Positions 24,396 through 61,299 of a stretch of 64,000 nt of DNA are shown piece after piece. The stretch is taken from positions 1,178,001-1,242,000 of the forward strand of contig MU055753.1 of assembly GCA_013239625.1 (NCBI GenBank), written 5' to 3'. The position numbers and the translations under genes were made by a program. The stretch is from Lama guanicoe (lineage: Eukaryota). The notes under the pieces are model-generated. The model was given only the letters and a program-made list of their open reading frames with translations, did not search any database and was not told the origin of the DNA. Position 1 is the first letter of the stretch, and each line of letters starts with the position of its first letter.

Positions 24396-24523
24396 GGGGA
24401 GGGTGTAGCTCAGTGGTAGAGCACGTGCTTAGCATGCACGAGGTCCTGGGTTCAGTACCTCCATTAATAAATAAATAAGTAAATAAATAAACCTAATCCC
24501 CCCCCCAAACAAAAACAAAAAAA
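24396..24523 (+). mobile_element. tRNA-derived SINE (vic-1-like)
   Basis: Same head with a small internal deletion; TSD caaagtga(a/g)a(c/t)gca at 24378-24391 and 24524-24537. Confidence 0.88.
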
Positions 24524-26649: not shown

Positions 26650-27653
26650 AGAGAACATAGATAAAACATTCTCTGACATAAATTGTAGCAATGTTTTCCT
26701 AGGTCAGTCTCCCAAGGCAATAAAAATAAAAGTAAAAATAAAATGGGACCTATTCAAACTTACAAGCTTTTGCACAGCAAAGGAAACCATAAATAAAATG
26801 AAAAGACAACCTATGGACTGGAAGAAAATATTTGCAAATGATACATGCAATTGACAAGGGCTTAATTTCCAGAATAGACAAACAGCTCATACAACCCAAT
26901 AACAAACAAATGATGCCCAATCAAAAAATGAGCAGAAGACCTAAATAGCCGTTTCTCCAGAGAAGACATATAGATGGCCAGTAGGCACTTGAAAAGATGC
27001 TCAACACTGCTAATTATCAAGAAATGCAAACCAAAACTACAATGAGGTATTATTACCTGCACTCCAGTGTTCATAGCAGCCCCATTTACAGTAGCCAAGA
27101 CAAGGAGGCAACCTAAACGTCCATCGACAGATGACTAGATAAAGAAATTGTATCTATGTGTGCGTGTGTGCACGCGCACACACACACAATGGAATACTAC
27201 TCAGCCATTAAAAAGAATGAAATAATACCATTTGCAGCAACATGGATGGATCTAGAGATTATCATACTAAATGAAGTAAGACAAAAAAAATCATATCACT
27301 TTTATATGGAATTTTAAAAAAATGATACAAATGAACATATTTACAAAACAGAAACATACTCACAGGCATAGAAAACAAATTTATGGTTACCAAAGGGGAT
27401 GGGGGAGGGATAAATTAGGAGTTTGGGATTAGCAGATACAAACTACTATATATAAAATAGATGAACAACAAGGTGCTAATGTGTAGCACAGGAAACTGCG
27501 TTCAATATTTTGTAATAACCTGTAAGGAAAAAGAATATGAAAAAGATCATGTATAATTTTAAATATATATTATATATAACTGAATCACTATGCTGTACAC
27601 CAGAAACTAACAACCTTGTAAATCAACTAAGCTTTGATTAAAAAAGAAAAAAA
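26650..27653 (+). mobile_element. 5'-truncated LINE-1 (ORF2 3' end, 3'UTR, A-tail), sense in intron 17
   Basis: L1 motifs (tgcacagcaaaggaaacc, aatggaatactactcagcc, ccatttgcagcaacatggatgga), A-tail, TSD aattggtgaaca at 26638-26649 and 27654-27665. Confidence 0.92.
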
Positions 27654-28164: not shown

Positions 28165-28404
28165 GATTATTTTGACATTGTGAAGAATCCCATGGACCTT
28201 TCCACCATCAAGCGGAAGCTGGATACAGGGCAGTACCAGGAACCCTGGCAGTATGTGGACGATGTCTGGCTCATGTTCAACAACGCCTGGCTCTATAATC
28301 GGAAGACATCCCGGGTCTACAAGTTCTGCAGTAAACTCGCAGAGGTCTTTGAGCAAGAAATTGACCCTGTTATGCAGTCCCTTGGATATTGCTGTGGACG
28401 CAAG
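28165..28404 (+). CDS. CREBBP: CREBBP exon 18 (bromodomain)
   Basis: ttaag|GATTAT ... CGCAAG|gtacag; 240 nt; DYFDIVKNPMDLSTI...AWLYNRK...YCCGRK. Confidence 0.97.
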
Positions 28405-28827: not shown

Positions 28828-28916
28828 TATGAGTTTTCCCCTCAGACTTTGTGCTGCTACGGGAAGCAGCTGTGTACAATTCCTCGCGATGCTGCATACT
28901 ACAGCTATCAGAACAG
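28828..28916 (+). CDS. CREBBP: CREBBP exon 19 (RING start)
   Basis: tgcag|TATGAG ... AACAG|gtgagc; 89 nt; YEFSPQTLCCYGKQLCTIPRDAAYYSYQN. Confidence 0.97.
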
Positions 28917-31900
28917 GTGAGCACTGAGCAATTTCTTGAATTACAGGACAGAAGGAAGGTCTTAGGGCAAGTTATGCTCATCTGATGACAGCCTGGGTAC
29001 GTTATTTCTTTCCTGAAGTTTCAGTGAAAAGAGCTGAAATTTCATTGCTTCTCAGTATTCAGATAGGCCTATGGTCTCTTAACTTAAAAGCAGGCTTTTA
29101 TAGTATAAAATTTTAAGTTCAAAACTGCTTGCTGCAGTGCTTGGATCAGGTACATGTATCAAGCCAAAATGTGCCAAACCAATATGAGAAACTCTGGAGT
29201 TAAGAGTAACTCTAATAAAGGTTGACATCCTTTTTTAAAATTAATAAAGTTGAAGCATTATATTTTACCAATCAGTGTATAAATATTTGCCTAGCTAATT
29301 TGGCCTGGACAGTCTGATAGAAAGACTTGTGTTAGTGCTAATTCATTAAAAAAAAAAAATTCAGGCCAGACTTTTTAACTGGTAGTACAATACAGAATGA
29401 AATTAGTGTTTTTGTTGAGTTTAAGATCAATTTTCCTATCATGAGATAGTGTTTTCGGGGTTTTGTGAGTGGTAGGTATAATTGAGAAATATTTGCTATT
29501 CTTTTGAAATGTGGAGATGTCTTAAGAATAGATTCCATGTCTTGAATAGAAGGAGAATGAAAATAATTTTTGTTATAGGTGATTCCCCCATGTAAGTACA
29601 ACTTCCTGGTTTGGGGGTTGTTTTGAAAATTAAGCTACTTTGTATCCATTGCTTTAGTGGCCACATGTTGCTGTAGCATGGAGGGCATCTTGCCCTGAAA
29701 CACAGGCTGTAATTCTTTGTCAGATTCAATTACATTGCCTCCATTTTGTGAATCAGCAATTAAATTCTTTATGTGACCAAGGTGGAGCTTCATGCCTATT
29801 CTGTGTCCTCAGGTTCAAGTATTAAATATCACCATTTAGAGTTTGGTGTTTTGATTATTTTGATCTTATGTTTGCTTGGAGTAATTATATATGTCCTTAT
29901 ATTTCAAAGAAGTTAAGTACAGGGCTTTTTATTTGTTCAAAGGTACATGCACAGGCATGAATAATTTGAAATTTTGCAATTATTTTTTTCCAGCTATGTT
30001 TTTTAAATTATTTTAGTTTTTTAAAAATGTCTAACCATATTCAAGATAATTGACAGCTCCCATCAAAATCCTATTTTAAAAAAAAAAGAACTGTTGACCT
30101 ATGAATAAATTAAGATTTCCAAGCCTTATTCAGCTCACTTATCCTAGTGAAATGCTGGTTCGAGGGGAAAGATGGGTGTCCCCAGAAAGAACCTCTGTTG
30201 GAAGTACAGCCAGCACAACCGTCCTGCTGAAGATATTTTAACATTTGGAATTTAATTTCTATCTTGGCTTGCCCTTGTAGCAATAAAAGCATTTTAAATC
30301 TGAAAGTTTGAAATGGTACCATAGCCCTTTTGTAATGGAGGCCTTCCTATAGTGACAAGTGTTGTTCTGGAGGTTCTGGCCCCTCCGTTTACACACCCCA
30401 TAACATACCAAGCTTAACCTTCTTATCCAACAAATGGGCATGGTAACAACTTCCCTGATAGCCTTAGTTATCAGCCTCCAAAGAGATAATGAATAGGATT
30501 TCACTTTGGAAACTGTTATGTGCCAAGCAAAATAAAGTTACGAACTTTTAAGAGAATAGGCTAAAACTAACTATACCCTGAAAAATGCCCCCACTGCTGA
30601 GTGCCCCAGTTTGCGTTTAGAAGGAAGAGCAGACAGTGGGTTGCTTGTCACCATATCTTAAGTTTGAGGGCCTTTCATTGTTGATTTCACTGTTTCTGGG
30701 TCCTTTGGGACCCTGCCTTTGCCGATTGGCACAGATTTTAGCCATGCGTAAGTTGAGAGCAGTTAAAGTTCAGTGGAGTCGAGGGCATGAGCATGCCACT
30801 GCTGCCCCTCGGAGGAGGTTGTTGACGGAGTGCAAACATGGGATTGTTTTGAAAGTTCCGAAATGTCCAATTTTATTTCTATAGAGGACTTAATTTTTAT
30901 TGAACAAAAATAATGTGTTTTCCTTAAGAGTAGAACCATGAATAAAGGCATTCTCTTTTACTCGTAATACATTTTAAGAGTGTAAGCATGCTGCTCCTCA
31001 GCTGAGTATCACAAGGTGTGCCTCCTAGAATACTGACCTCAAAGAGATAACCGCCTTGTGAGTCTAGGAAAGCAGTGGTCTAATTCACGATGGACATTTT
31101 AAGTGCTTACATTCTTAATCTCAACTTTGACTATTGATGGACACTGTGGTGTTCTTTTGAATAACTTATGGCACTTATAGTCCTAAACTGTTTGGGCACT
31201 TAGAATAGGCAATTCTACAGACCGTTTAAACAAGTGAATCTAATACATAAACTAGTGTATGGTTACATTTTTCACTTGTTTCCATACTTTGACATTTTGA
31301 AAGTAAGTCATGTTGGGGAAACTGTTCTATAGATTTTTCCATATATTGTCTATAGATAAGATAGGTATTATCTATAGACATTTGAATTCTTTGTATATAC
31401 TGATATGGTACTTAACAACAATCTGCATTTGAAAATTTACTCCATACATTACCTTTACAGATAAACTGTGCAGTTACATTGTATTAACCTTAGGTACCCA
31501 GATGTACATCATCATCAGATTATGTGAAGTACTTCTCCTTTACAATTCCATATTCATCATGCTGCTTCCTTCACACAAGGCAGAAGGTCATCCAGAGTCT
31601 TTAGGTTGAAAAGTGAATCTCTGAACCGTTATGTATTTCCAGGGTGAATAAAGTTTGGACTCGATTGTAAGATAGGGACAGCCCAGCATTAGCATCTGTC
31701 ACCCACTGATTGCCAGGGTGGTTTCAACCTGCTTGACCAGATGGGTGGCTGCACCCCTCCTGTGGGCTGTCGTCACCTCAGTAAGGTGCTGCAGGGAGGC
31801 CCGGGCGCCTTCCTCTCCCTTTACACCTGAACACGTTTCATTCTCCACCGTCTCTGGCATTGATTGCTCTGAACAGACACTGGAGCGTGCTCACTGTGTG

Positions 31901-34224
31901 TCCCTCCCAGTTTCTGACCCTGGGGTTCTTGGGGACAGGAGTTATACACAGAGAGCGCAGGTTCCCGTGGCCACTCTGAGGGCTGCTGTTGGGCCATCAG
32001 TGCTTTGCTCTGGGCCAGCTTCCTCCAGTGGAACGTGGTGGGTTTGTGATTCTTGTTTCCCAGGTGTTGCTGGGCTCGATGTCCTGCTTGAATAAAAACT
32101 AAGAATTTGTCCAAGATTTTTAAAACTATTGTGTAATTATCATGGCAATTTCATTTCAAAATGTATTCGGTAGTCCTCTTTGAGCTAGCCCACAGTGGCT
32201 GTCCTGTCATAATGAATTGGACCATTCCATCCCAAGTTCCATTTTTAAAAGGGAAGCAATTTGGCATTGAGGAGCTATCTTTTTTGCATATTGTTCTGGT
32301 TAACACTTAATTGGTTTATAGTTTATGTACTTTTCTTTCTTGCCAATGATGATCATGCCCTCCTGCACGTGGAAGTTCTACTACATGATTTCAAGGCTCC
32401 ATAAGAATATTTACAAAATAGTGAATGGTCAGAATATTACTATAGTTCATTCAGAGAAAAATGATACATATTTTTAAAAAAAAACAGCAGTGTTAATCTG
32501 TTCCTGGTCAGTTTTTAATCTTGGCAGACTTTGTTGATTGAATTAATCCTAAATATACTGGTCCCAGCAAGAAGCTTTTATTAATTCAGTTGCTACCCAC
32601 AGTGGCTCTGTCATGTTCTTCATCAACAATCTGAAAAATTGAATAAGCTTGAGATGTGTGCATGCTCTGAAGTTATATGCTTTTGATTCACTGTGTGTGT
32701 TTAGTCAGTGAAATACAGCCGACAAAATGCTCAAGTGTGCTTAATTAAGATTAGAATTAGAACCTGTGGGGGCCTATTTTAGTGTTAATGAAGACGTTCT
32801 GGCCAGGCAGTGGCCTGAATCCCAGTCCTTTATAGCTGTGTGCGTGCGTGTGTGTGTGTATGACTGCTGCATCTCCTTCTGCCTGTGTGGTTCAGTGTGA
32901 CGGTCCAAGTCTCGTCACAGTGTCTTTAACACTAATCCTCTTGGCATCTCGTAGACGTAGTTTTGAGCGCTAAAACCGCATTCCATTGTGCTGCCGCCGC
33001 TGCCTTGCACTCATCCTTTTTGCTTGTGTAGTTCGCCTCATTCAGCTCGTTTACTTCTGCAGTATTCTCGTGTGCCCATCTTGTTTTATGCAGCATCAGC
33101 CTACATTTTTGTTGATTTCTCATTTGTGTCCTTTCCAAACATTTAATAGTTCTTATTTTAATTGTTCTTATTTAATAGCTTGAGCCCAGGCTCTATATAA
33201 TCAGAAATTGGGGTGATGGATAATTTCTCAAATGCAGATTGTGCTGTTAAGATTAACTTCCTAAATTTGCTTAACTTGGATTGTCACCAAGTCAGAGCAA
33301 TCACTATCTCAGATTGATGAATGATTGGTCCCAGTACCAAAAAGTTTAAATCAAAGCTTAGAATTGAATTTTAAAAGTCTTTAAGATTGTTCGTGGATTT
33401 ACATATATTGTATTGTTTATACAATATATCACAATTTTTTCTCTGTATATTCTTACTGATAAATGGCTGGAAAGTCTTTGACCCCGATTGCATTTCTGTT
33501 AAATGTTTGTCTAGAATATGGATTTGGTTTCATTTCTATTGTAACCCAGTTAACTAAGTGATTAACATGAGAAAAATGACAGAAGAAAATTAAAAACAAT
33601 TCTGGGTGCTCAACATTTTCATACCTTTAAAGATCTGGCTTAATAACAGAAATAAAATCTGTGAATCGCTGTCAAGCATAAATTTACTGTTTCAAAAAAT
33701 AAAGCTATTACAGTTTAAATTGCTTTTTTAAGATATTTTGTCAGACTGTTTTATTCAGAGTAAATTTTTTCCATCTCAAACCCTGGAGTTATATTTGATT
33801 TTTCTCTAAGTAAATAAAATTCAAACTCTAAAATTTAGGCTCCTTGCAATTCTAGTATTAACAACTCCTTGAAAACATTTGCATCTTGGAGCTGGACGAG
33901 CCCACTATTAGTCATGATGGCCTGTGATGTGTGCAGTGAGACCGGATGCTAATCAATGCTTTGCCTTGGCTTTCTGCTCTGTGTTGTCTTGGTGTTTGCG
34001 TCTTACCTTTATGTCTGTGCTATTTGTTCCCTCCCCTGTTCTCTAATCCTGCCCTTCNNNNNNNNNNNNNNNNNNNNNNNNNNNNNNNNNNNNNNNNNNN
34101 NNNNNNNNNNNNNNNNNNNNNNNNNNNNNNNNNNNNNNNNNNNNNNNNNNNNNNNNNNNNNNNNNNNNNNNNNNNNNNNNNNNNNNNNNNNNNNNNNNNN
34201 NNNNNNNNNNNNNNNNNNNNNNNN

Positions 34225-34305
34225 NNNNNNNNNNNNNNNNNNNNNNNNNNNNNNNNNNNNNNNNNNNNNNNNNNNNNTGGGTGACGACCCTTCACAACCC
34301 CAGAC
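34225..34305 (+). CDS. CREBBP: CREBBP exon 20 (5' part hidden in N-run; start inferred from the expected 81-nt length)
   Basis: Visible 34278-34305 encodes GDDPSQPQ(T), followed by donor gtaagt. Confidence 0.85.
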
Positions 34306-35821
34306 GTAAGTACCATCCTGTCATTTTGTTCGGAGATGACTCTTAATTGCTGTTTTCCTCCTGTCTATGATTAAAAGGGGAGCACCACTGCCATTTTGAC
34401 GTTTGTGTGGTGTGTTTTTTCATACTCACTGTACCCAAACTGACACTTCAAAGTGTGGCTGTTGTAGCTGAGTCCCAGAGCCACACCCACTCTCCCCTCC
34501 ATACCGAGCATCTAGACACCGCGGTGCTCTGGCACCCGCGCAGCTCACCAGTCCCTCTTGACCTTGCTCTGTCTCTTGTTTTAAAACACTTGCTTTTTCC
34601 TAGTGGCTGTCAACTTACATTGGGGGAAATTATAAATTTTCAGATACACCTCTTCACAGAACTGGTGGGAACAGGAACAAGTCTTGTGTACACACCTTGT
34701 CCGTAGCATTTGGTTGATCTTCCACTGAAACCTCTGTCCTTTAAGTTGTGGAGTTAACAGAACCCAGATGGTGAGACCCAGCGAGCAAGCGTATCTTCTT
34801 CCTTGTTGGAAGCTGGACTCTTGCTCATTAGCTCCAGTGTGGACAGGCATGAATGTTAGTTCATTCATTCCTTCACTGAGTTCACCATTTCCTCCCCGAA
34901 GCTTACTACCTTTGAGTAGGCTGATGGCCAGAATGTGGCAGGAAAAAAGCAAGTCCACAAGTTCAGTGAATTGAAGCGTTTACATGCGTGGGATACCCAA
35001 AAACCTGCCAGCCACCACAGCTGCCTAGGACTGCCAGTATTTTGTGGTTCTTTATTTTCTCCTGACTCTGCCATGATTCCTGCCACCGGGAAGTCTACTG
35101 GTGTGACTGTCCCCCCTAGAGGCAGGAAAGGCTTCCCACCGAAGCAGTTTCCAGCAGGCACAGACGGTTACTCTGCAACTCAAGTTTACTTTCTTCAAAT
35201 GCAGAACAAACCATAGCCGCCTGTAAGACATTCAGACCAAAACGACAAAATTTTTCATATTTGGTTTATTTTTCTATCCCATGTCATCTTAATTCTTTGA
35301 TCCAATTATGTGACTAATAATTGGATTGTATAATTCTATGATTCAAACAATTCACATATACACTGATCATTAACAAAGGAACAGTAGAAAAGAAATACTT
35401 AGCTCTTTAAGAATAAGTGAAATAGCCCCAAGTACATGCTGCCTTGTGTTGGTGAGGGAATTGTAATGAGAAGAATTGGTTACACCAGTGTTGGTCAGAT
35501 TCAGTAGCCGTTACATGTAGATTTGATTGAAAATTGATTTGAATCGCAACATAATTTTTCCATCATATTTTGACTGACCTTAATTAAATCTTATAAGTGC
35601 TGATGATAGTTTGGAGGAAGTAAGATAGAGAAAAATAAATGGTAGTGCTTTTGTAGAATTACATTTTATGCCATCATTACCTCCACTGAGATTTCAGCTG
35701 ACCATTTATTTTTTATGTGAAGAATTAGTTACAAAATAATACCCCAGAGACCCTATAGTTTATACTCAACAGATAAATTTAATTAACGTTTTTCCTTTTT
35801 TTTTCCTGCTGAAAAAATAAG

Positions 35822-35878
35822 GACAATTTCAAAGGATCAGTTTGAAAAGAAGAAAAATGATACCTTGGATCCTGAACC
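35822..35878 (+). CDS. CREBBP: CREBBP exon 21
   Basis: ataag|GACAATT ... GAACC|gtgagt; 57 nt; TISKDQFEKKKNDTLDPE. Confidence 0.95.
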
Positions 35879-38768
35879 GTGAGTATACAGCTATTTCTGA
35901 ATTTTAGGATTTTAGTTTCATATCAGGAAAGTTCCTCCTTATGATTGGGTTATGGGAGAAGACATTGTAAATAAATATATTACCTTGAGTGGAATTCTTT
36001 GTATGAAGTTATTTCAGATATGGATTCTGTTTAGACTCTCACAAAATATATATGTCTCTATAGCATGGTATGCATGTACTGAATGTTAATAAAGATCAGA
36101 TCAGGTGGATGTTTGGGTTGTATTAGAGCCTCTCTGATGGCCTGGTCACTGGTGTCTTTAAGAAGCTGTTTTGTGAGACTCTTTAGACAGCAAAGGTAGG
36201 ACTGTTTGGTGGCAGGGTGCTAGTATCACTTAGAGGGACATTTGAGAAAGAAAACTCCTAGAAACTACTTTTTAAAAATAATGGGAAGCCTAGTGCTACA
36301 TGTTCTTGCCACCATATTTTCAAAGGTTGTTGTCAAATATTTTCCTTCCAGTGAGAATACTGTGTGTGCAGAGTTCGCTTTGTAATAGCTTCTAAAGAGG
36401 CCTCAGAGCTCTTTTCATGTGGTGGCCCTGCTCAGGTCCCTAACTCTGAGTCCTGAGGGCACCCCAGTCACTGTGGGGAGCGCCTTTCCAGGGCCGCGTG
36501 GGGTGTCTGGGAAATGTGACTGTGGTGCATCCAGAGCTGAGCAACAGGTCCTCACCTTCTGTGGCCCAATGTCCCAGCTCCAAGGGGGCCATCGCTGCAG
36601 TGGAAGACACAAGGGCTGTTGGGGCTGACTCAATCTCCCTGCCTGCAGTTCCCTGGGCGGGACGGGGTGGGGCAGGGGCATGTTGATTCCTTAGCAAAGT
36701 GCCTGGTGTGTGAGGAGGCTGCTCACACACGTCTTGTCAGTGACCAGGGGATTGTTTGTCCTGATCGGCCACCTCCCTGCTCACAATGTGTCCTCACCCA
36801 CAGTTTTTCAGTTTCTCAACGACTTATATTCACTTTTCAATTTGAAAATATATTACTTTGAAGTAGTAAGTGCCAGGCAGTGGGGAATACATGGATGAAT
36901 AAAGGGGGCTTGGCCCTTCGGCTGTTCATCTTCTTCTAGTAGGAGAGACAGAGAGATGGTATCATAGACAGCAGGAGGCAGTAAGGTGGTCCAGAGGGAG
37001 GGGCCCCAGTTCAGGCAGAGTGACATCCCGGAGAAAGTGACATTCATCTGGAAGCAGGTGTAGGGGGTGGGCAGAGCATTCTAGACACAAAGAAGTGACA
37101 CAGGTCACTGGGCAACACTGCAGGTAAGCTCGAGTGGTGGGCAGGTAGGGAGCATGGATGGAGCCCCACGGGACGAAGAGGCAGAGGGTGCTGGGTGAAG
37201 GGCCACATACGCCCTTCCCTGGCATGGAGATTTCCTCCTGTGTGAGCTGCGGAGGTTTGCAAGGACTTTGTGGGTTTCTGTTATGGAAGGATCACTCTGG
37301 ATCTGGAAGATGGATTCACTAGGAGAGGAGGAAGCATTGCTCCCCAGTAGGGAAATCAGGTGGAGACTTAGAGCAGCAGCTCAGGGAGGAAGGGGAAGCA
37401 GACCTCAAGGAGGGTCTTCTGGTAGAAGAGGCCACGCCAGGAGGTGGGTGAGGAGGAGGCCAGACTTGGTGTTGGCTGAGGTGCAGAAGTGCGTGAGCGA
37501 GAAGCACAGGGTCGGAGCCGGCCCCGTGGTTAGACAGAGGCAGGAGGAGGGAGGCTGAATTCAAAATCGATAGAATCGGGTCTAGAACATGTGTATTTTT
37601 TTGACCTTCCTCTTCCCTAACATAGGGAAGAGTTGAGAATGGTCTGTCTTCAGAGGGGACACGGAAACTAAGGGAGTTACTGCCTACTGAGCTTTCAAAT
37701 TCTTGACCCAGGGGTTGAGCTCAGCTGCTAAGATTTCAGAGAAGGAGCTGGTTGGGGGTGACACGGCCCTTGAAGAAGGAGCGAAGGTTCAGAACAGCCA
37801 CTGTATAGTGTAGGCGGGGTGGTGGCAAAGGGCAGGACTACTGGGGAACTGGAGGGCAGCAGGTGAGGGCTGCTGCTGTTCTGCACGCTTTTTTCCTCCA
37901 GCAGAGCAGGAACAGAGAAGCTGGGTTGGGCTCCAGGTGTGGTTGAAGGGTTGCTCAGCAAGGGCAGTGGGAAGTTCGGGGTCAGGGACTCGACTGACAG
38001 CAATGAGTGCGTGCATCTGCTTGTGGGGCTCAGCTTCCTCAGATAGGAAGAGCCTGGACCTGGGACAGTTTGGAGAAATGTCGTACTTTCTCGTCCCTTC
38101 CGTCTTCCATGAGGTGTAAGTTGTGGTGGCGGTAGGGGAATGGCTGAAGAAATAGAAGGTTTTGACCTTCAAGCATGTTGGCGATTAAGATTCCTAGGTG
38201 AGGTGACAGGGCCCAGGCGAACCACAGTGGAAGCTGCACAGTGTGGTGCATCCCAGTCTCGCTAGTGTTTGCTGGAATAAAGACCATCATTTACCAGTTG
38301 GCTTGGTCCCCACCCTTGTAACTGATGCAGAGCAGATGTTTCCTGTGCCTAGGCTTACGGACACACGTGTTTGTAACACTGACAGTATTGTTCTCTGTTA
38401 TTCAAGTTTGTTAAGGTATGTGCAGTCACCTACAGCAAATGCTCGTCTTGAAAATGTGTGGTAATATCTGATACTGACCCGTAAACTGTGCCTTTATCAT
38501 AGCAATTTTTAGAAGTAAATTTTCATTTCTGACTGCAAAGATTGAGAGAAGAGAGGAATGAGGCACTTGTACAGAGAAGGGGAGAAAACCAGCTTTTCCT
38601 GTTGGAAGTATCATATACTGATGCATTTTTAGAACACGGCTCAGTCAGTCAGCAGATGCTTTAATGCTGCAGATTCTCAAAGTCATCAAGGGGACGAGGT
38701 GCGAGTGTGGCTCAGGGACTCCGCGTGTGGCTCCCCATGTGTTACAGCACGCTCTCTCTGTCTTATAG

Positions 38769-38846
38769 TTTCGTTGACTGCAAGGAGTGTGGCCGGAAGA
38801 TGCATCAGATCTGTGTTCTCCACTATGATATCATTTGGCCTTCAGG
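38769..38846 (+). CDS. CREBBP: CREBBP exon 22 (PHD)
   Basis: tatag|TTTCGTT ... TCAGG|gtgagt; 78 nt; FVDCKECGRKMHQICVLHYDIIWPS. Confidence 0.97.
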
Positions 38847-39172
38847 GTGAGTGATTTCCTGGTGATTTCCTGTGATGTGGGGAAGGGAGAGCATCCTGCA
38901 CAGAGCAGAGGGGAGGGTGCCGGCTGCTGCTGCGTTTCATTCATTGTTGTCAGCAGGAATCCGGCAATTAGATCGATGGCAGTTGGTTCTAAATTTAAGT
39001 CTTAAGTGTTTGCCCGCTTTAGGAATTGTGGAATCAAAGCAGTCTGCCTCTTCACTTTTGTATAATGATGAGATTTAAATTGCCAACAAAGTACTTGAGT
39101 GCTGCATTTCACTGGTTTGGCAACATATACTGTTTTATATAATCTGATCACACCCATTATTTTTTTTTGCAG

Positions 39173-39240
39173 CTTTGTGTGCGACAACTGCTTGAAAAAA
39201 ACTGGCAGGACTCGAAAAGAAAACAAATTCAGTGCTAAGA
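39173..39240 (+). CDS. CREBBP: CREBBP exon 23
   Basis: tgcag|CTTTGTG ... AAGA|gtaagt; 68 nt; FVCDNCLKKTGRTRKENKFSAK. Confidence 0.97.
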
Positions 39241-40299
39241 GTAAGTTGTGGAAGGATTTCTGTTTTGTAGTCTGTACGTTTTAGAAACGTGTGAATTTTC
39301 CCAGTCCTCCTTTGTTTCTAACACATGGCTTTGGAGCTCACTTGCCTCAGGTTTTCATCTGTAAGTTTGTTTTCTAATACTTCGCATTTTTCTTGTCTTA
39401 CCCTTGAAGAGAATCATTTGCCTGAATCTGTGTGTGAAAGTCAGCTTTATGATCAGTCTGTGTCTCAGATGAAAACTTAGAAAGCTTGGGCATATAGTGA
39501 ACTCTGTAAATTCTGAGAGAGAAGATTTTTCAACAGATCCTTCTCAAGTAGCTTAGAAATAAGACATGCTCCCAGTATACATGCACGCATGTGTCCTGTG
39601 TGACCAGTGCACTCAGCCCTGAGCACATGGTGGGGCAGCCGTTGTGAGGAGTGGCCCTCTGGGGCCCACTGGGAACCGGCCAGCCGCGCCCAGGACTGGC
39701 AGGAGCCGGGTCTGCACAGAGGCTTGCTGGGCATGTCACTGCAGCGCTGAGAGCGGCTGCTGGTGTCTGTGTAGAGCAGGGTGAGTACCCTCTTGCTATA
39801 GAAGTAACTTTTCATAGGTAGTATGGACGTTTTTTAGAGATGACACACTTTTCAGAAGTGTACGGTATGTCATCGTTGTCAGCTTGGCACTGAGACCACC
39901 TTCACGGTGTTCACGGCTGTCCTGCTGAGCTGACAGCAAACCTGAATGAAACAAGCCCCCGCGGCAGTGCCGTACAGCTCGCTGGCCCAGGGCTCCCTCT
40001 GCGCCCCCTCTTCTCCAGCAAGACGGTGACTAGCGCACTGCAGAGGGGTTCCCAGCAAGAGGTAGGCTGTTTGAGGAGCTGGAGTGCAAGAGAGATGGAA
40101 TGTAGGGAGAGATCCCCAGGCAGAAGGAGGAAAGGTGGCAGGCAAGGAGGAGAGACCCCTCTGAAGGCTTTCAAGTCAATGTTAATTCAAGTTCTAACAC
40201 TGTCACTACCAAAATCCAGTTACCCTATCACTTAAACTCACTATTGTAAAACCTTCTGAAATATTAATGAATTCACTGATGTAGTATTTCTCTTTAGAT

Positions 40300-40380
40300 C
40301 AGTTTCTAAACTGACATTCGGGCCAGATAAGTCTTTATTGTGGGGGGTGTCCTGTGCTTTGTAGAATTCTAGCATTCCAG
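40300..40380. mobile_element. MER20-like fragment
   Basis: cagtttct...tgacatt.gggccagataa.tcttt.ttgtgggggg..tgtcctgtgc motif. Confidence 0.6.
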
Positions 40381-41662
40381 GAAGGGAGGCCACCTTATGA
40401 GGGAACAGAACTTGCTCAGCGGCATGAGGGGGAGCACATGGGGATGAGAATGTGAGGATTTTTTTCATGGGCTGAGTTGATTAGATGGGTCAATTGTAAG
40501 TCCCTTACACCTAATTCTGTATTTCTCAGGATGGTTATCTCAGCTGTGGGGAGTGTGAAGTAAGAAGGGGTCCAGGGCATGAATGGCACAGCTGAGTAAA
40601 GTGTACATCTGTGTCAGAGTGTGACAGATCGTAAACTTCACCTCACTTTTATAGTTTTGCAAGTTTTCATTTTTCTATGGGGTTTTTATTTAATTGCCAT
40701 TGTAAGTTTTTTTTAAGTATTTTATTTAGGTATAACTTAAATACGGAAGTAACTCCACCATCGGTATGCTTATTGCAGAGGAACTAAGTTTAGAAAGTTA
40801 GTCTAAATTTTGCAAATACCTTATAACCTCAGTAAGGAATCTTCTAAAATCCTATCATCTATAAATATTCAGTGTTAACCTGTCACAGTTTTCCCATCTA
40901 ATCTTTTTTCCCGTACACAAGTTTTTTATGTTATGACTGTATGTGTACTTCCATGCTGTGTAACTGGTGTCACAGTGGCCACGTGCAGAGTGGCGGGCTG
41001 GAGTAGCCCACCAGGAACGATGCTGGGCGGGTCTGGGTACTGGGACGGTGTTCCTAGTCTCCCAGGATCAGAACACTGGCCGTCTGCTTGCTTAGCCATC
41101 TCAGACTGCAGGACGACTCTCCTCGGAGCTCGGTGGGAGGAGGCATTTGTGCCGTCCTGTCCTGGAAGAAAAGCAGTGGCAGGCTCCCCACCAGAGGAAT
41201 TCCTCGCGTGTGGGTTCCAGCCTCAGGACCCAGCTGTGACCCCAGGCAGCCATGTGGGCACAGCTGGGACCAGATCTCAGGCTCACCAGGGCCTGGGTAC
41301 AGGGCAGGAGGCAGGGTGGACATGGTGTGACTTTCCCATGCCTGCTCCTCTGCTTTAACCGAGAGCTCCTCTATTTTCAGCTTTCATCTTTGTGGCTCTT
41401 CTGCCCCTTACATTTAGAAACAGATGGAAACATTTGAGCATTTGACGGCAGTTCTCACTGTGTGGAATGCCTGAGCTTCCAGGCCCCACCTTTCTCCTGT
41501 AAAACGTCCTTTATGGGACAGACTAGATCCCTTCTGTGTCTGGAGAATGTTACTCCTAAAAATAGCGGACCGCACTGAGAGAAAAAGGTGGATTCTGTGG
41601 CTTCAGCACCTTCTCCACAGCCTTTCCACAGCCCTGTCACCTCCTTGTTCTGGGCTTTCCAG

Positions 41663-41813
41663 GACTGCAGACCACACGATTGGGAAACCACTTAGAAGAC
41701 CGAGTGAACAAGTTTTTGCGGCGACAGAATCATCCTGAAGCCGGGGAGGTCTTTGTCCGCGTGGTGGCCAGCTCAGACAAGACGGTGGAGGTCAAGCCAG
41801 GGATGAAGTCACG
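41663..41813 (+). CDS. CREBBP: CREBBP exon 24 (HAT)
   Basis: tccag|GACTGCAG ... TCACG|gttcgt; 151 nt; LQTTRLGNHLEDRVNKFLRRQNHPEAGEVFVRVV...GMKS. Confidence 0.96.
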
Positions 41814-48771: not shown

Positions 48772-50952
<2,181 letters not shown>

Positions 50953-58710: not shown

Positions 58711-60495
58711 CAGCCCTCAGCTCACCCCAGGGGACGGCAGTGACTTCTGCAGAAGAAATGGACAACCTCAGAGTTGGTTGTCCAGGCCACAGAGGTGGTC
58801 TGGAGACCCAGGGAGGGGGGTGTCTCCTCCTTCTCTCCTGTCCTGTTTCTCTCTCTTGCTCTCTCCAAGCAACTCCTTGCCAGTCTCCATCAATTCTGCT
58901 CAAGCACATCTGCATCTAATCATTTTTTCCCTCTTCTATTTTCCTTGTCTGCAAAGGGGCTGAAAGCTGCTCATGACCCCCTTAGACTGGCCTGGATCCC
59001 TGGGCACCTTAAAAGGCCACAGTTCCCTGCGCTACCAGAGGACCCAGTATCACAAAGATCTGTGGCTGAGGGTATGTCTCTGAAGGCCACAGGCCAAGAG
59101 AGGACAGAAGGCCCAGGTAGGTGTGTCTGGAACCTGATAGGTTTGCCCTCCACAGAGCCTGGGTCCTGCCTGTCTCAGCAGAGGCCCCCCCACCATCCTT
59201 AACTAAAGCCTAGGTTTCCTTCCTTCCTTTGCCAAATACCACTTCCTCTTCCTGAAATAAAAGGGCTCCCCAAGCTAGATCTATTGCCCCATAGACCACT
59301 GTGTCAGCTCTTACAAAACAGATGATTTCCTGAGTGGAGTGAACAAATGAAATGTGACGGTGAGACACCTCGATTCAGTGACATCCTGGGAATGGAATGC
59401 TATGTCTGGGACTGGCTCAGTGTCTGGATTGTAGGGAAGGAGGGAGAGAGGCAGGGATTGGTTATGCAGGGCTTGGAGGCCAAGGCATAAGGGATTTGGA
59501 ATTGATTATCTGCTGGGAAACCACTGGAAGACCCTGATTGAGGAGTGTATGATCCAGCTGCTGTGTAGAGAATGGGGTGTGTGTTGGAGGGTGCGGGGTG
59601 GGGTGTCAGGAGGCAGCTGGAGTCTCCCAGCTGAGAGAGCTCCTGCTCTTCCATCCAAATCTGCCCACGTCTTTCATGTTCCTCTCCTCTGTTGCTTAAG
59701 CCTGGAACTTGTGGATCACCCTTGACATCTTCTACCTGGAAGTGTTCCTGGACACACCCCCTCCTGTGGCCCTGGCTAGGTCCAGGTCCCACGGGGGGGA
59801 CACTCCCCTGGCTTCTGTACTTTGCAGATCCTGTCACAATCTCAACCTGTTTTTGTGCAATTATTTGATCGTGGCAGCGAGTCTTCAGTGTGCCTCATTA
59901 TCATCTGGGGAGCCGCCTGAACCCCACTTCAGGCAGTGCTGGAGAATCTGCATGTTACATGGTTTGAAACTCTCGTAAGAAAGGGAATTCAAGGTCGGAA
60001 TCCCCGACGAGACTCCTACCTCCAGGAGGGCGAGAGAATTGGAATGAATGAATAAGGCCAGTTTGCTGGTGGGCTTTGGCTCTCGAGTTTTGGTGTAGCC
60101 AAGTCAAGCATGAAAGTCTCCCTTTTGCTTTTTAGCTATTTGGCCTGCGTTGGTTGGAACAGACTGACTTCCAGCGGTCTGGACGGGTGGCCAGGTCTTA
60201 TAAAGGATCCCAGAGGTATTAACTGCTTCTGCCTGGGCGCCGCCTTTTCACACCCTCTGCTGTGGACTGGAACATCTGCCCGTTTCTGGGACGCACAAAC
60301 TGAGGCCCAGCTGGTGGACAGGTGCCCAGGGCGACCCAGCACTCACTGCCCGTCGCCCTTGACAACGCGATACAAGGTCGCGGAGGTCCCGCCTCCAGGC
60401 CCGACTGTCCTCTCGCGGGCCGACCGCGCCCGCGCCACGGAAGCCCGGCCCACTCGCCCGCGCAGGCAGCGGACCGGGCAGCCGGGCGCGCGCTG

Positions 60496-60503
60496 TGACG
60501 TCA
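60496..60503. promoter_or_regulatory. Full palindromic CRE (TGACGTCA)
   Basis: GTGACGTCAC at 60495-60504, ~70 nt upstream of the TRAP1 ATG. Confidence 0.8.
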
Positions 60504-60569
60504 CCGCGCCGCGCACGGCGACCCCGCCCGGGCCGCGCGTGGCTGCTCTGGGCGCTGAGGAGAACCGGC

Positions 60570-60645
60570 ATGGCGCGGGAGCTGTGGGCGCTGCTGCTGT
60601 GGGGCCGCTGCCTGCGGGCGCCGGCGTTGGCGGCCTCCCGGGGAG
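60570..60645 (+). CDS. TRAP1: TRAP1 (mitochondrial HSP90/HSP75) first coding exon, N-terminal targeting peptide
   Basis: ggcATGG Kozak; [25 protein letters not shown] resembles recalled human [29 protein letters not shown]; donor GAG|gtgaga; expected synteny; exon 2 not seen in window. Confidence 0.93.
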
Positions 60646-61299
60646 GTGAGAGCGGCCGGGCAGGGCGGGTGGAAAGCGGGCAGGGATGGGGACGCGCGGA
60701 GCTCCCAAGAGTCCCGAGCCGATTTTCTCCTCCGTGGGAGGCGCTGTGTGGGAGATTCTGTGAGACTGATGTGCCCAGCGCGCGGCGAGCGGCGAACGCT
60801 GAGCGCTCTGTGCGTCTTGATGTCACCTGGCTCGACCCAGGGCTGGGCCGCCGGGGTTTTCCCGTAGGTGACGGGGTTGAGTCCGGGCCCACGTGACTGC
60901 AGCAAAGGCTTCTCCCCTACCAGCTCCTGGGGCCGGGTTGAAGTAGAGAGGCTGCGGGCTCCTCGCTGCTGGAGCCGAAGGCAGTTTCGAGGAGTTGAAA
61001 TCGAAGGGTGTGTGTGCGCTGGGAACGGACCCCACCAGGATGATGACTTAAGTCCCTTAGTTGCGCTTTTATTCCTCTCCTCCCCCAAGTTGATTTATAC
61101 ACGGATAATGCATAAGCCACTTGGTCACTCGTTCATTCGACACAAACTTGAGTGCCCACTCGGCCTGGCATGGCACGCGGCAGCGAGCCGAGCAGAGACC
61201 CGGCACCTGGGCCCTCATGCAGCCCGTGGACTCTGGGTTATTGACCGCCGTGTCCTCAGGGCCTGGAATCGGTAGGTGCTCAAATAAATGTTGAAAGAA

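What the first reader, a model, noticed from the sequence alone, without database searches (positions are those of the whole stretch)
32837..33130. Candidate regulated poison or alternative terminal exon in intron 19
Seen, in order: TGCATG at 32659-32664; UG repeat at 32837-32859; 7-bp hairpin TGTGACG/CGTCACA at 32896-32919; branch-point-like ACTAAT at 32931-32936 (also the QKI motif); pyrimidine-rich spacer; two AGs 6 nt apart (32953-54 and 32959-60). Splicing exon 19 (ends AAC AG) to either AG reads the same frame and stops at TAA 32971-32973 (R-R-S-F-E-R* or S-F-E-R*). The following ~150 nt retain many CpGs in an AT-rich intron and resemble no repeat I know. I see no strong donor nearby, but AATAAA occurs at 33651 and near 33698 and 33813. 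Known: UG repeats bind TDP-43/CELF and flank repressed cryptic exons. Inference: a switch yielding either NMD or a CBP that keeps TAZ1, KIX and bromodomain but lacks HAT, potentially dominant-negative. Best candidate for an unannotated element here, but unproven.
Basis: partly seen in the sequence, partly recalled or inferred. Interest (0 to 1): 0.7.

Follow-up and report, generated by a model that had tools for sequence, protein, structure and literature searches.

The report
Weak acceptor in CREBBP detained intron
A UG-rich patch inside intron 19 of the gene for the chromatin enzyme CBP carries a weak splice-acceptor-like site that is likely seldom used, so the proposed protein-truncating exon is unsupported; the clearly ancient splicing signal of this intron lies about 1 kb further on and is shared with the sister gene EP300.

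Summary
The window is a mammalian CREBBP gene and every motif listed is at the stated place. Singly they are common: 14 branch-point-plus-AG sites, 77 seven-bp stems, 48 AATAAA in 43.5 kb of intron. The UG/UGC and CpG richness is an outlier. As an exon it is weak: the two AGs rank 32 and 84 of 309 in the intron, no good donor follows, and 0 of 99 CBP/p300 proteins carry the predicted tail. Unnamed homologous stretches keep the acceptor region but have lost at least 4 of 7 and 3 of 5 CpGs. No reads were laid, so junction use is untested. What is solid: the human orthologue of intron 19 is a listed detained intron, and 33946-33991 is a branch-point/pyrimidine block 43/46 identical to EP300, where it heads a 327-346-nt AG-free zone before a +30-nt alternative acceptor of exon 20. 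Verdict: likely pseudo-acceptor, possibly a decoy or RNA-binding element; poison/terminal exon about 20%.

The parts
28828..28916 (+). CREBBP exon 19 (89 nt, ends AAC AG); read-through into the intron gives R-stop at once
28917..34224 (+). Intron 19 (about 5.3 kb; 3' end inferred from an 81-nt exon 20); human orthologue listed as a detained intron
32659..32664 (+). TGCATG (RBFOX-type motif, label recalled); 1 of 12 in the introns
32837..32859 (+). Imperfect UG repeat, 11.5 copies, 80% match
32896..32919 (+). Small hairpin just upstream of the branch-like motif; locally stable but not rare
32931..32936 (+). Branch-point-like ACTAAT
32953..32960 (+). Tandem AGs; weak acceptors (5.4 and 2.5 bits; ranks 32 and 84 of 309)
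32971..32973 (+). In-frame TAA if exon 19 is joined to either AG
32945..33075 (+). CpG-rich patch (9 CpG, o/e about 1.15); CpGs partly absent in homologous stretches
33030..33031 (+).
33651..33818 (+). Three AATAAA, at background frequency
33946..33991 (+). Branch-point motif plus pyrimidine tract, 43/46 identical to EP300 intron 19; heads an AG-free zone (117 nt visible here): predicted distant branch point for exon 20
34225..34305 (+). Exon 20; start lies in an N stretch and is inferred from length

Best explanation
The stretch is a UG/UGC- and CpG-rich part of CREBBP intron 19 whose branch-point-plus-AG site is most likely a seldom-used pseudo-acceptor that is removed with the intron, not a regulated exon. 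Shown: motifs, frame, weak scores, single copy, homologous stretches elsewhere. From print: the human orthologue of this intron is spliced slowly (detained). Inferred: the slow, regulated step is set mainly 1 kb downstream, where a paralog-conserved distant branch point and long AG-free zone would feed a +30-nt alternative acceptor of exon 20 (10 extra residues in the RING region); the CpG excess is probably lineage-specific (kept or gained here, lost elsewhere) and not the mark of exon selection.
For: Acceptor matrix from 34 true sites: 32955 scores 5.4 bits (above 18% of true sites, rank 32 of 309), 32961 2.5 bits; best donors downstream 5.8 and 6.0 bits, above only 24-27% of 33 true donors. 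Motifs at background rates. 0 of 99 proteins with the exon-19 end have the tail; 83 are canonical, 5 have the +10-residue insert, 7 end R-stop, 4 other. No counterpart in EP300 intron 19 (11 and 31 of 100 shuffles score as well). P0200 lacks at least 4 of 7 CpGs, P0201 at least 3 of 5; the 9 members of the P0201 cluster differ among themselves at several residues. CREBBP absent from the searched supplements of four NMD/cryptic-event papers. Detained intron: the only CREBBP row among 13,308 in Boutz Data S2 is chr16:3801807-3807288; 3801807 is the start of a 435-nt circRNA equal to exons 20-24 here.
Against: The patch is a compositional outlier on four measures. P0200 matches the window at 7 of 7 antisense residues over 32935-32955 and has its stop at the branch motif, with no frame-shifting gap over 34 codons: compatible with a kept branch point, both AGs and the stop, though the A of each AG and the T of the stop fall on wobble positions. 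Estimated 82-88% identity would be above neutral if the source species are distant (unknown). NMD isoforms are rare in protein databases, so 0 of 99 is weak; the matrices are crude; real poison exons often have weak sites (recalled). No reads were examined. Crebbp is not in the mouse detained-intron list.
Confidence: 0.5

Rival explanations
1. The patch is an intronic splicing regulator or decoy acceptor: UG/YGCY-binding proteins and branch-point factors load here without productive splicing and so help hold intron 19 unspliced or favour back-splicing to exon 20.
For: UG, TGC, YGCY densities match those of the conserved block at 33900-34057; unique UG run before a branch+AG site; host intron detained in human cells; exon 20 is the acceptor of circ_0037655; homologous ungapped stretches exist.
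Against: No EP300 counterpart; no pairing with the distal block or the exon 19 donor region beyond shuffles; many substitutions among homologues; no binding or deletion data.
Confidence: 0.24
2. One reading: a repressed acceptor that, when TDP-43/CELF/RBFOX/QKI control shifts, joins exon 19 to a stop-carrying exon and yields NMD or a HAT-less CBP ending at an intronic poly(A) site.
For: Branch motif 17-22 nt from the first AG with a 34-nt AG-free spacer, 72% pyrimidine; UG run upstream; acceptor region compatible with conservation in P0200; a truncated fish p300 isoform ends two residues after exon 19 (P0039); an SRSF1 preprint reports a frameshifting CREBBP event whose exon I could not see.
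Against: Weak acceptor, no good donor; AATAAA at background, 8 copies upstream; 0 of 99 proteins; no branch point listed in intron 19's 3' part in Mercer Data S2 (the true exon 20 branch point is missing there too, so weak); plain read-through of exon 19 already gives the same truncation.
Confidence: 0.2
3. The CpG-rich patch is a DNA-level element (an unmethylated intronic enhancer or factor site), and the splice-like motifs are incidental.
For: Highest CpG o/e of 233 intron windows; single copy.
Against: Only 130 nt; CpGs not kept in homologues; no chromatin data.
Confidence: 0.06

Closest known systems
Detained introns (Boutz et al. 2015, PMC4281565; passages and supplement rows seen)
   Same: The human orthologue of this very intron is in the human list; the paper notes detained introns often flank alternative or NMD exons.
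   Different: Not in the mouse list; detention in this species untested; no role of the 32837-33130 patch shown.
Exons with distant branch points / long AG exclusion zones (Gooding et al. 2006, PMC1431707; passages seen)
   Same: EP300 exon 20 has a 327-nt (L004) and 346-nt (L006) AG-free zone headed by a branch consensus and about 90% conserved; CREBBP shares the head block.
   Different: CREBBP/EP300 are not named in the paper's main text. Conserved between paralogs. The one human branch point listed near EP300 exon 20 is proximal (exon coordinate recalled).
Poison (NMD) cassette exons and TDP-43-repressed cryptic exons (general knowledge, recalled)
   Same: In-frame stop, UG run near a weak acceptor.
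   Different: No donor, no junction evidence, no ultraconservation shown.
Annotated +10-residue CBP/p300 isoform (P0154 orangutan CBP; fish p300 P0050, P0076, P0096, P0097)
   Same: The recorded alternative event in this intron.

Membership tests
Poison (NMD) cassette exon | Inclusion brings an in-frame premature stop | tested here: met
   but 31% of intron-19 AGs do so within 6 residues
Poison (NMD) cassette exon | Usable acceptor | tested here: inconclusive
   5.4 and 2.5 bits, above 18% and 6% of true sites
Poison (NMD) cassette exon | Usable downstream donor | tested here: inconclusive
   best 5.8 bits at 33212 and 6.0 at 33935, 239 and 962 nt past the stop
Poison (NMD) cassette exon | Junction reads that rise on NMD block | not testable with these tools
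   no reads laid; CREBBP absent from searched supplements
Poison (NMD) cassette exon | Conservation above neutral intron | tested here: inconclusive
   about 82-88% to unnamed homologues of unknown distance; CpGs lost
Alternative last exon / intronic polyadenylation | Poly(A) signal used after the acceptor | tested here: inconclusive
   AATAAA present but at background rate; no 3'-end reads
Alternative last exon / intronic polyadenylation | Recorded product with the new tail | tested here: not met
   0 of 99 proteins
TDP-43-repressed cryptic exon | UG repeat near the cryptic site | tested here: met
   32837-59, 95 nt upstream of the AG
TDP-43-repressed cryptic exon | Appears on TDP-43 loss | not testable with these tools
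   CREBBP not in 9 searched supplement files of PMC12586162, one unreadable
Detained intron (host intron 19) | Excess intron reads in poly(A) RNA | tested here: inconclusive
   met for the human orthologue in print; not measured in this species; absent from the mouse list
Distant-branch-point exon (exon 20) | AG-free zone of 150 nt or more | tested here: inconclusive
   met in EP300 (327, 346 nt); in CREBBP 117 nt visible, the rest under N
Distant-branch-point exon (exon 20) | Conserved branch consensus and pyrimidine tract at the head of the zone | tested here: met
   TGCTAATC in window, L004 and L006; 43/46 identity
Distant-branch-point exon (exon 20) | Lariat mapped at the distant A | tested here: inconclusive
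   not in Mercer Data S2 nor found in Pineda and Bradley files

The most novel reading that the evidence does not exclude
CBP and p300 share a splicing switch older than their duplication: a distant branch point that slows intron 19 and selects a 10-residue insert in the HAT-regulating RING region; CREBBP has added an upstream UG-gated acceptor that diverts detained transcripts into NMD or a bromodomain-bearing, HAT-less CBP, which would make intron 19 a dosage dial and antisense target for a haploinsufficient disease gene.
Probability: 0.12. Interest if true: 0.72.

Novelty: new member of a known kind. Interest (0 to 1): 0.3.

Why it matters
CREBBP is dosage-sensitive (Rubinstein-Taybi syndrome, lymphoma; general knowledge), so any non-productive splicing route in it would be a place for deep-intronic variants and for oligonucleotides that raise protein level. 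The better-supported lead is the conserved block at 33946-33991 and the AG-free zone behind it: by Gooding et al. a new AG in such a zone can create an acceptor, so variants up to about 300 nt before exon 20 of CREBBP and EP300 deserve attention. I did not find this block described in 10 literature searches, which cover only the held library.

Tried and rejected
Microexon idea: the AG at 33030-31 reads S-S-P like the fish 10-residue insert, but that insert abuts exon 20 in EP300, and the AG is lost in P0200: rejected as coincidence. Young repeat or known RNA: single copy, no Rfam hit at E<=1 over 28917-33105; old repeats were not tested. Pseudogene or small protein: no homologue by word search in two frames; phmmer gave 4 hits, two judged homologous intron frames (P0200, P0201), P0199 a cysteine-rich repeat protein and P0202 without a stretch, both dropped. 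Duplicate of the exon 20 acceptor region: alignments no better than shuffles (256-283 of 300). Long-range pairing: none. Orthologous CREBBP DNA: none from pattern scans (0; 3 loci, 2 chance bacterial, 1 vertebrate EP300; 2 bacterial; 0). Two papers sought by recalled ids were not held. OpenSplice, PMC12868714 and PMC5855767 passages concern other exons or a variant list.

Full report
Setting. The window holds most of a mammalian CREBBP gene on the + strand: exon 18 (28165-28404) is 100% identical to named CBP proteins and tblastn places the exons. Exon 19 is 28828-28916. Exon 20 ends at 34305; its start is under an N stretch and is inferred at 34225 from length. The finding lies about 1.27 kb before exon 20, is single copy in the genome and matches no Rfam family (28917-33105).

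Observation. Counted over 43,493 intronic bases, the parts are ordinary: 12 TGCATG, 13 ACTAAY, 14 branch-plus-AG sites, 77 seven-bp stems, 48 AATAAA; 31% of 306 AGs in this intron reach a stop within 6 residues. The hairpin is stable against its own shuffles (1 of 300) but equally stable 36-nt windows occur at 39 places, and 269 of the finding's 294 bases fold no better than shuffles (z -0.37). Composition is unusual: CpG o/e 1.14 is the top of 233 windows, TGC/YGCY/TGTG densities are in the top 0.1-0.7%, and no other of the 14 branch+AG sites has a UG run upstream. These are post hoc ranks.

As an exon. Of 198 proteins fetched (120 of 293 hits; 78 cluster members), 99 contain the end of exon 19: 83 go on canonically, 5 carry a 10-residue insert, 7 end R-stop (what read-through of exon 19 gives; some may be partial records), 4 differ otherwise, 0 have the predicted tail. 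NMD products are under-recorded, so this is weak. No reads were laid; use of the junction is untested. The run search found RNA runs holding most of the stretch, which cannot separate retained intron, DNA and exon.

Conservation. No orthologous CREBBP DNA was obtained. A phmmer search with the antisense frame of 32935-33108 found two unnamed short frames, P0200 (25 of 34 residues) and P0201 (27 of 41; cluster of 9 variants), which I read as the same intron in other genomes. Simulation puts them near 82-88% nucleotide identity; they were found because they are similar, and the species distance is unknown, so constraint is not shown. Against: at least 4 of 7 CpGs are absent in P0200 and 3 of 5 in P0201, three changes are shared by both, the A of the AG at 33030 is changed in P0200, and the P0201 variants differ freely. 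EP300 intron 19 has no counterpart.

What is conserved. EP300 from the same genome (L004) shares one intronic block with CREBBP: 33946-33991, 43 of 46 bases, E 5e-14, a TGCTAATC motif with a pyrimidine tract. In EP300 it heads an AG-free zone of 327 nt; an unnamed vertebrate EP300 locus (L006) has 346 nt and about 90% identity there against 52-75% upstream. The 24 other true CREBBP acceptors measured, plus exon 19's, have zones of 11-73 nt; 117 AG-free bases are visible after 33940 before the N. The zone ends at an acceptor 30 nt before exon 20 that encodes the 10-residue insert seen in fish p300 and orangutan CBP. This fits the distant-branch-point class of Gooding et al. (PMC1431707, passages). 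Mercer Data S2 lists one branch point near EP300 exon 20, about 20 nt from the canonical acceptor by a recalled exon coordinate, and none in the 3' part of CREBBP intron 19. I infer that the distant site would serve the +30 acceptor and the near site the canonical one; no lariat shows this.

Host intron. Boutz et al. 2015 (PMC4281565; passages and supplement rows) list 13,308 human detained introns in Data S2; the one CREBBP row is chr16:3801807-3807288, and the mouse list has none. PMC8114954 (passages) gives a CREBBP circRNA from 3801807 of 435 nt, equal to exons 20-24 here (81+57+78+68+151), which identifies the row as intron 19.

Literature. Ten searches (listings seen) showed no report of an exon in CREBBP intron 19. 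CREBBP was absent from the searched supplements of PMC7347940, PMC10123112, PMC12586162 (one file unreadable), PMC8361881 and PMC5959240 (one file unreadable); some tables may not use gene names. PMC13733691 (passages) reports a frameshifting SRSF1-dependent CREBBP event without naming the exon in what I saw; its supplements were not seen. Protein-binding labels (TDP-43, CELF, MBNL, QKI, RBFOX) and the RING location of the junction are recalled.

Verdict. Even if used, the product would differ by a few residues from plain read-through of exon 19, and a HAT-less human CBP isoform ending after exon 21 is already on record (P0163). Interest 0.3; the neighbouring paralog-conserved branch block is the better lead.

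Noticed in passing
window 33946-33991; L004:2746-2791; L006: Branch-point and pyrimidine block shared by CREBBP and EP300 (43/46), heading a 327-346-nt AG-free zone in EP300: predicted distant branch point older than the gene duplication.
   Followed up: yes
L004:3066-3095: Alternative acceptor 30 nt before EP300 exon 20 encodes the 10-residue insert found in fish p300 and orangutan CBP records; function unknown. The CREBBP counterpart lies under N.
   Followed up: partly
window 34225-41813: Exons 20-24 sum to 435 nt, the length of human circ_0037655; the back-splice acceptor is the one behind the long AG-free zone.
   Followed up: partly
window 28917-28919; L004:1214-1216: In both paralogs read-through of exon 19 hits a stop at once (R-stop); 7 of 99 protein records end so.
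   Followed up: partly
P0039, P0163, P0166: Recorded truncated isoforms: grass carp p300 ends two residues after exon 19; human CBP isoform X8 ends after exon 21; hamster CBP isoform X2 ends inside exon 19. All lack the HAT domain.
   Followed up: no
window 24397-24465 and 26716-27650: A tRNA-like SINE and an L1-like fragment in introns 16 and 17 (labels recalled, not tested).
   Followed up: no
window 50193-50269: GCA/CAG repeat of about 26 units in the last exon (polyglutamine tract).
   Followed up: no
window 60001-61000: CpG island (94 CpG, 66% GC), likely the promoter of the next gene.
   Followed up: no
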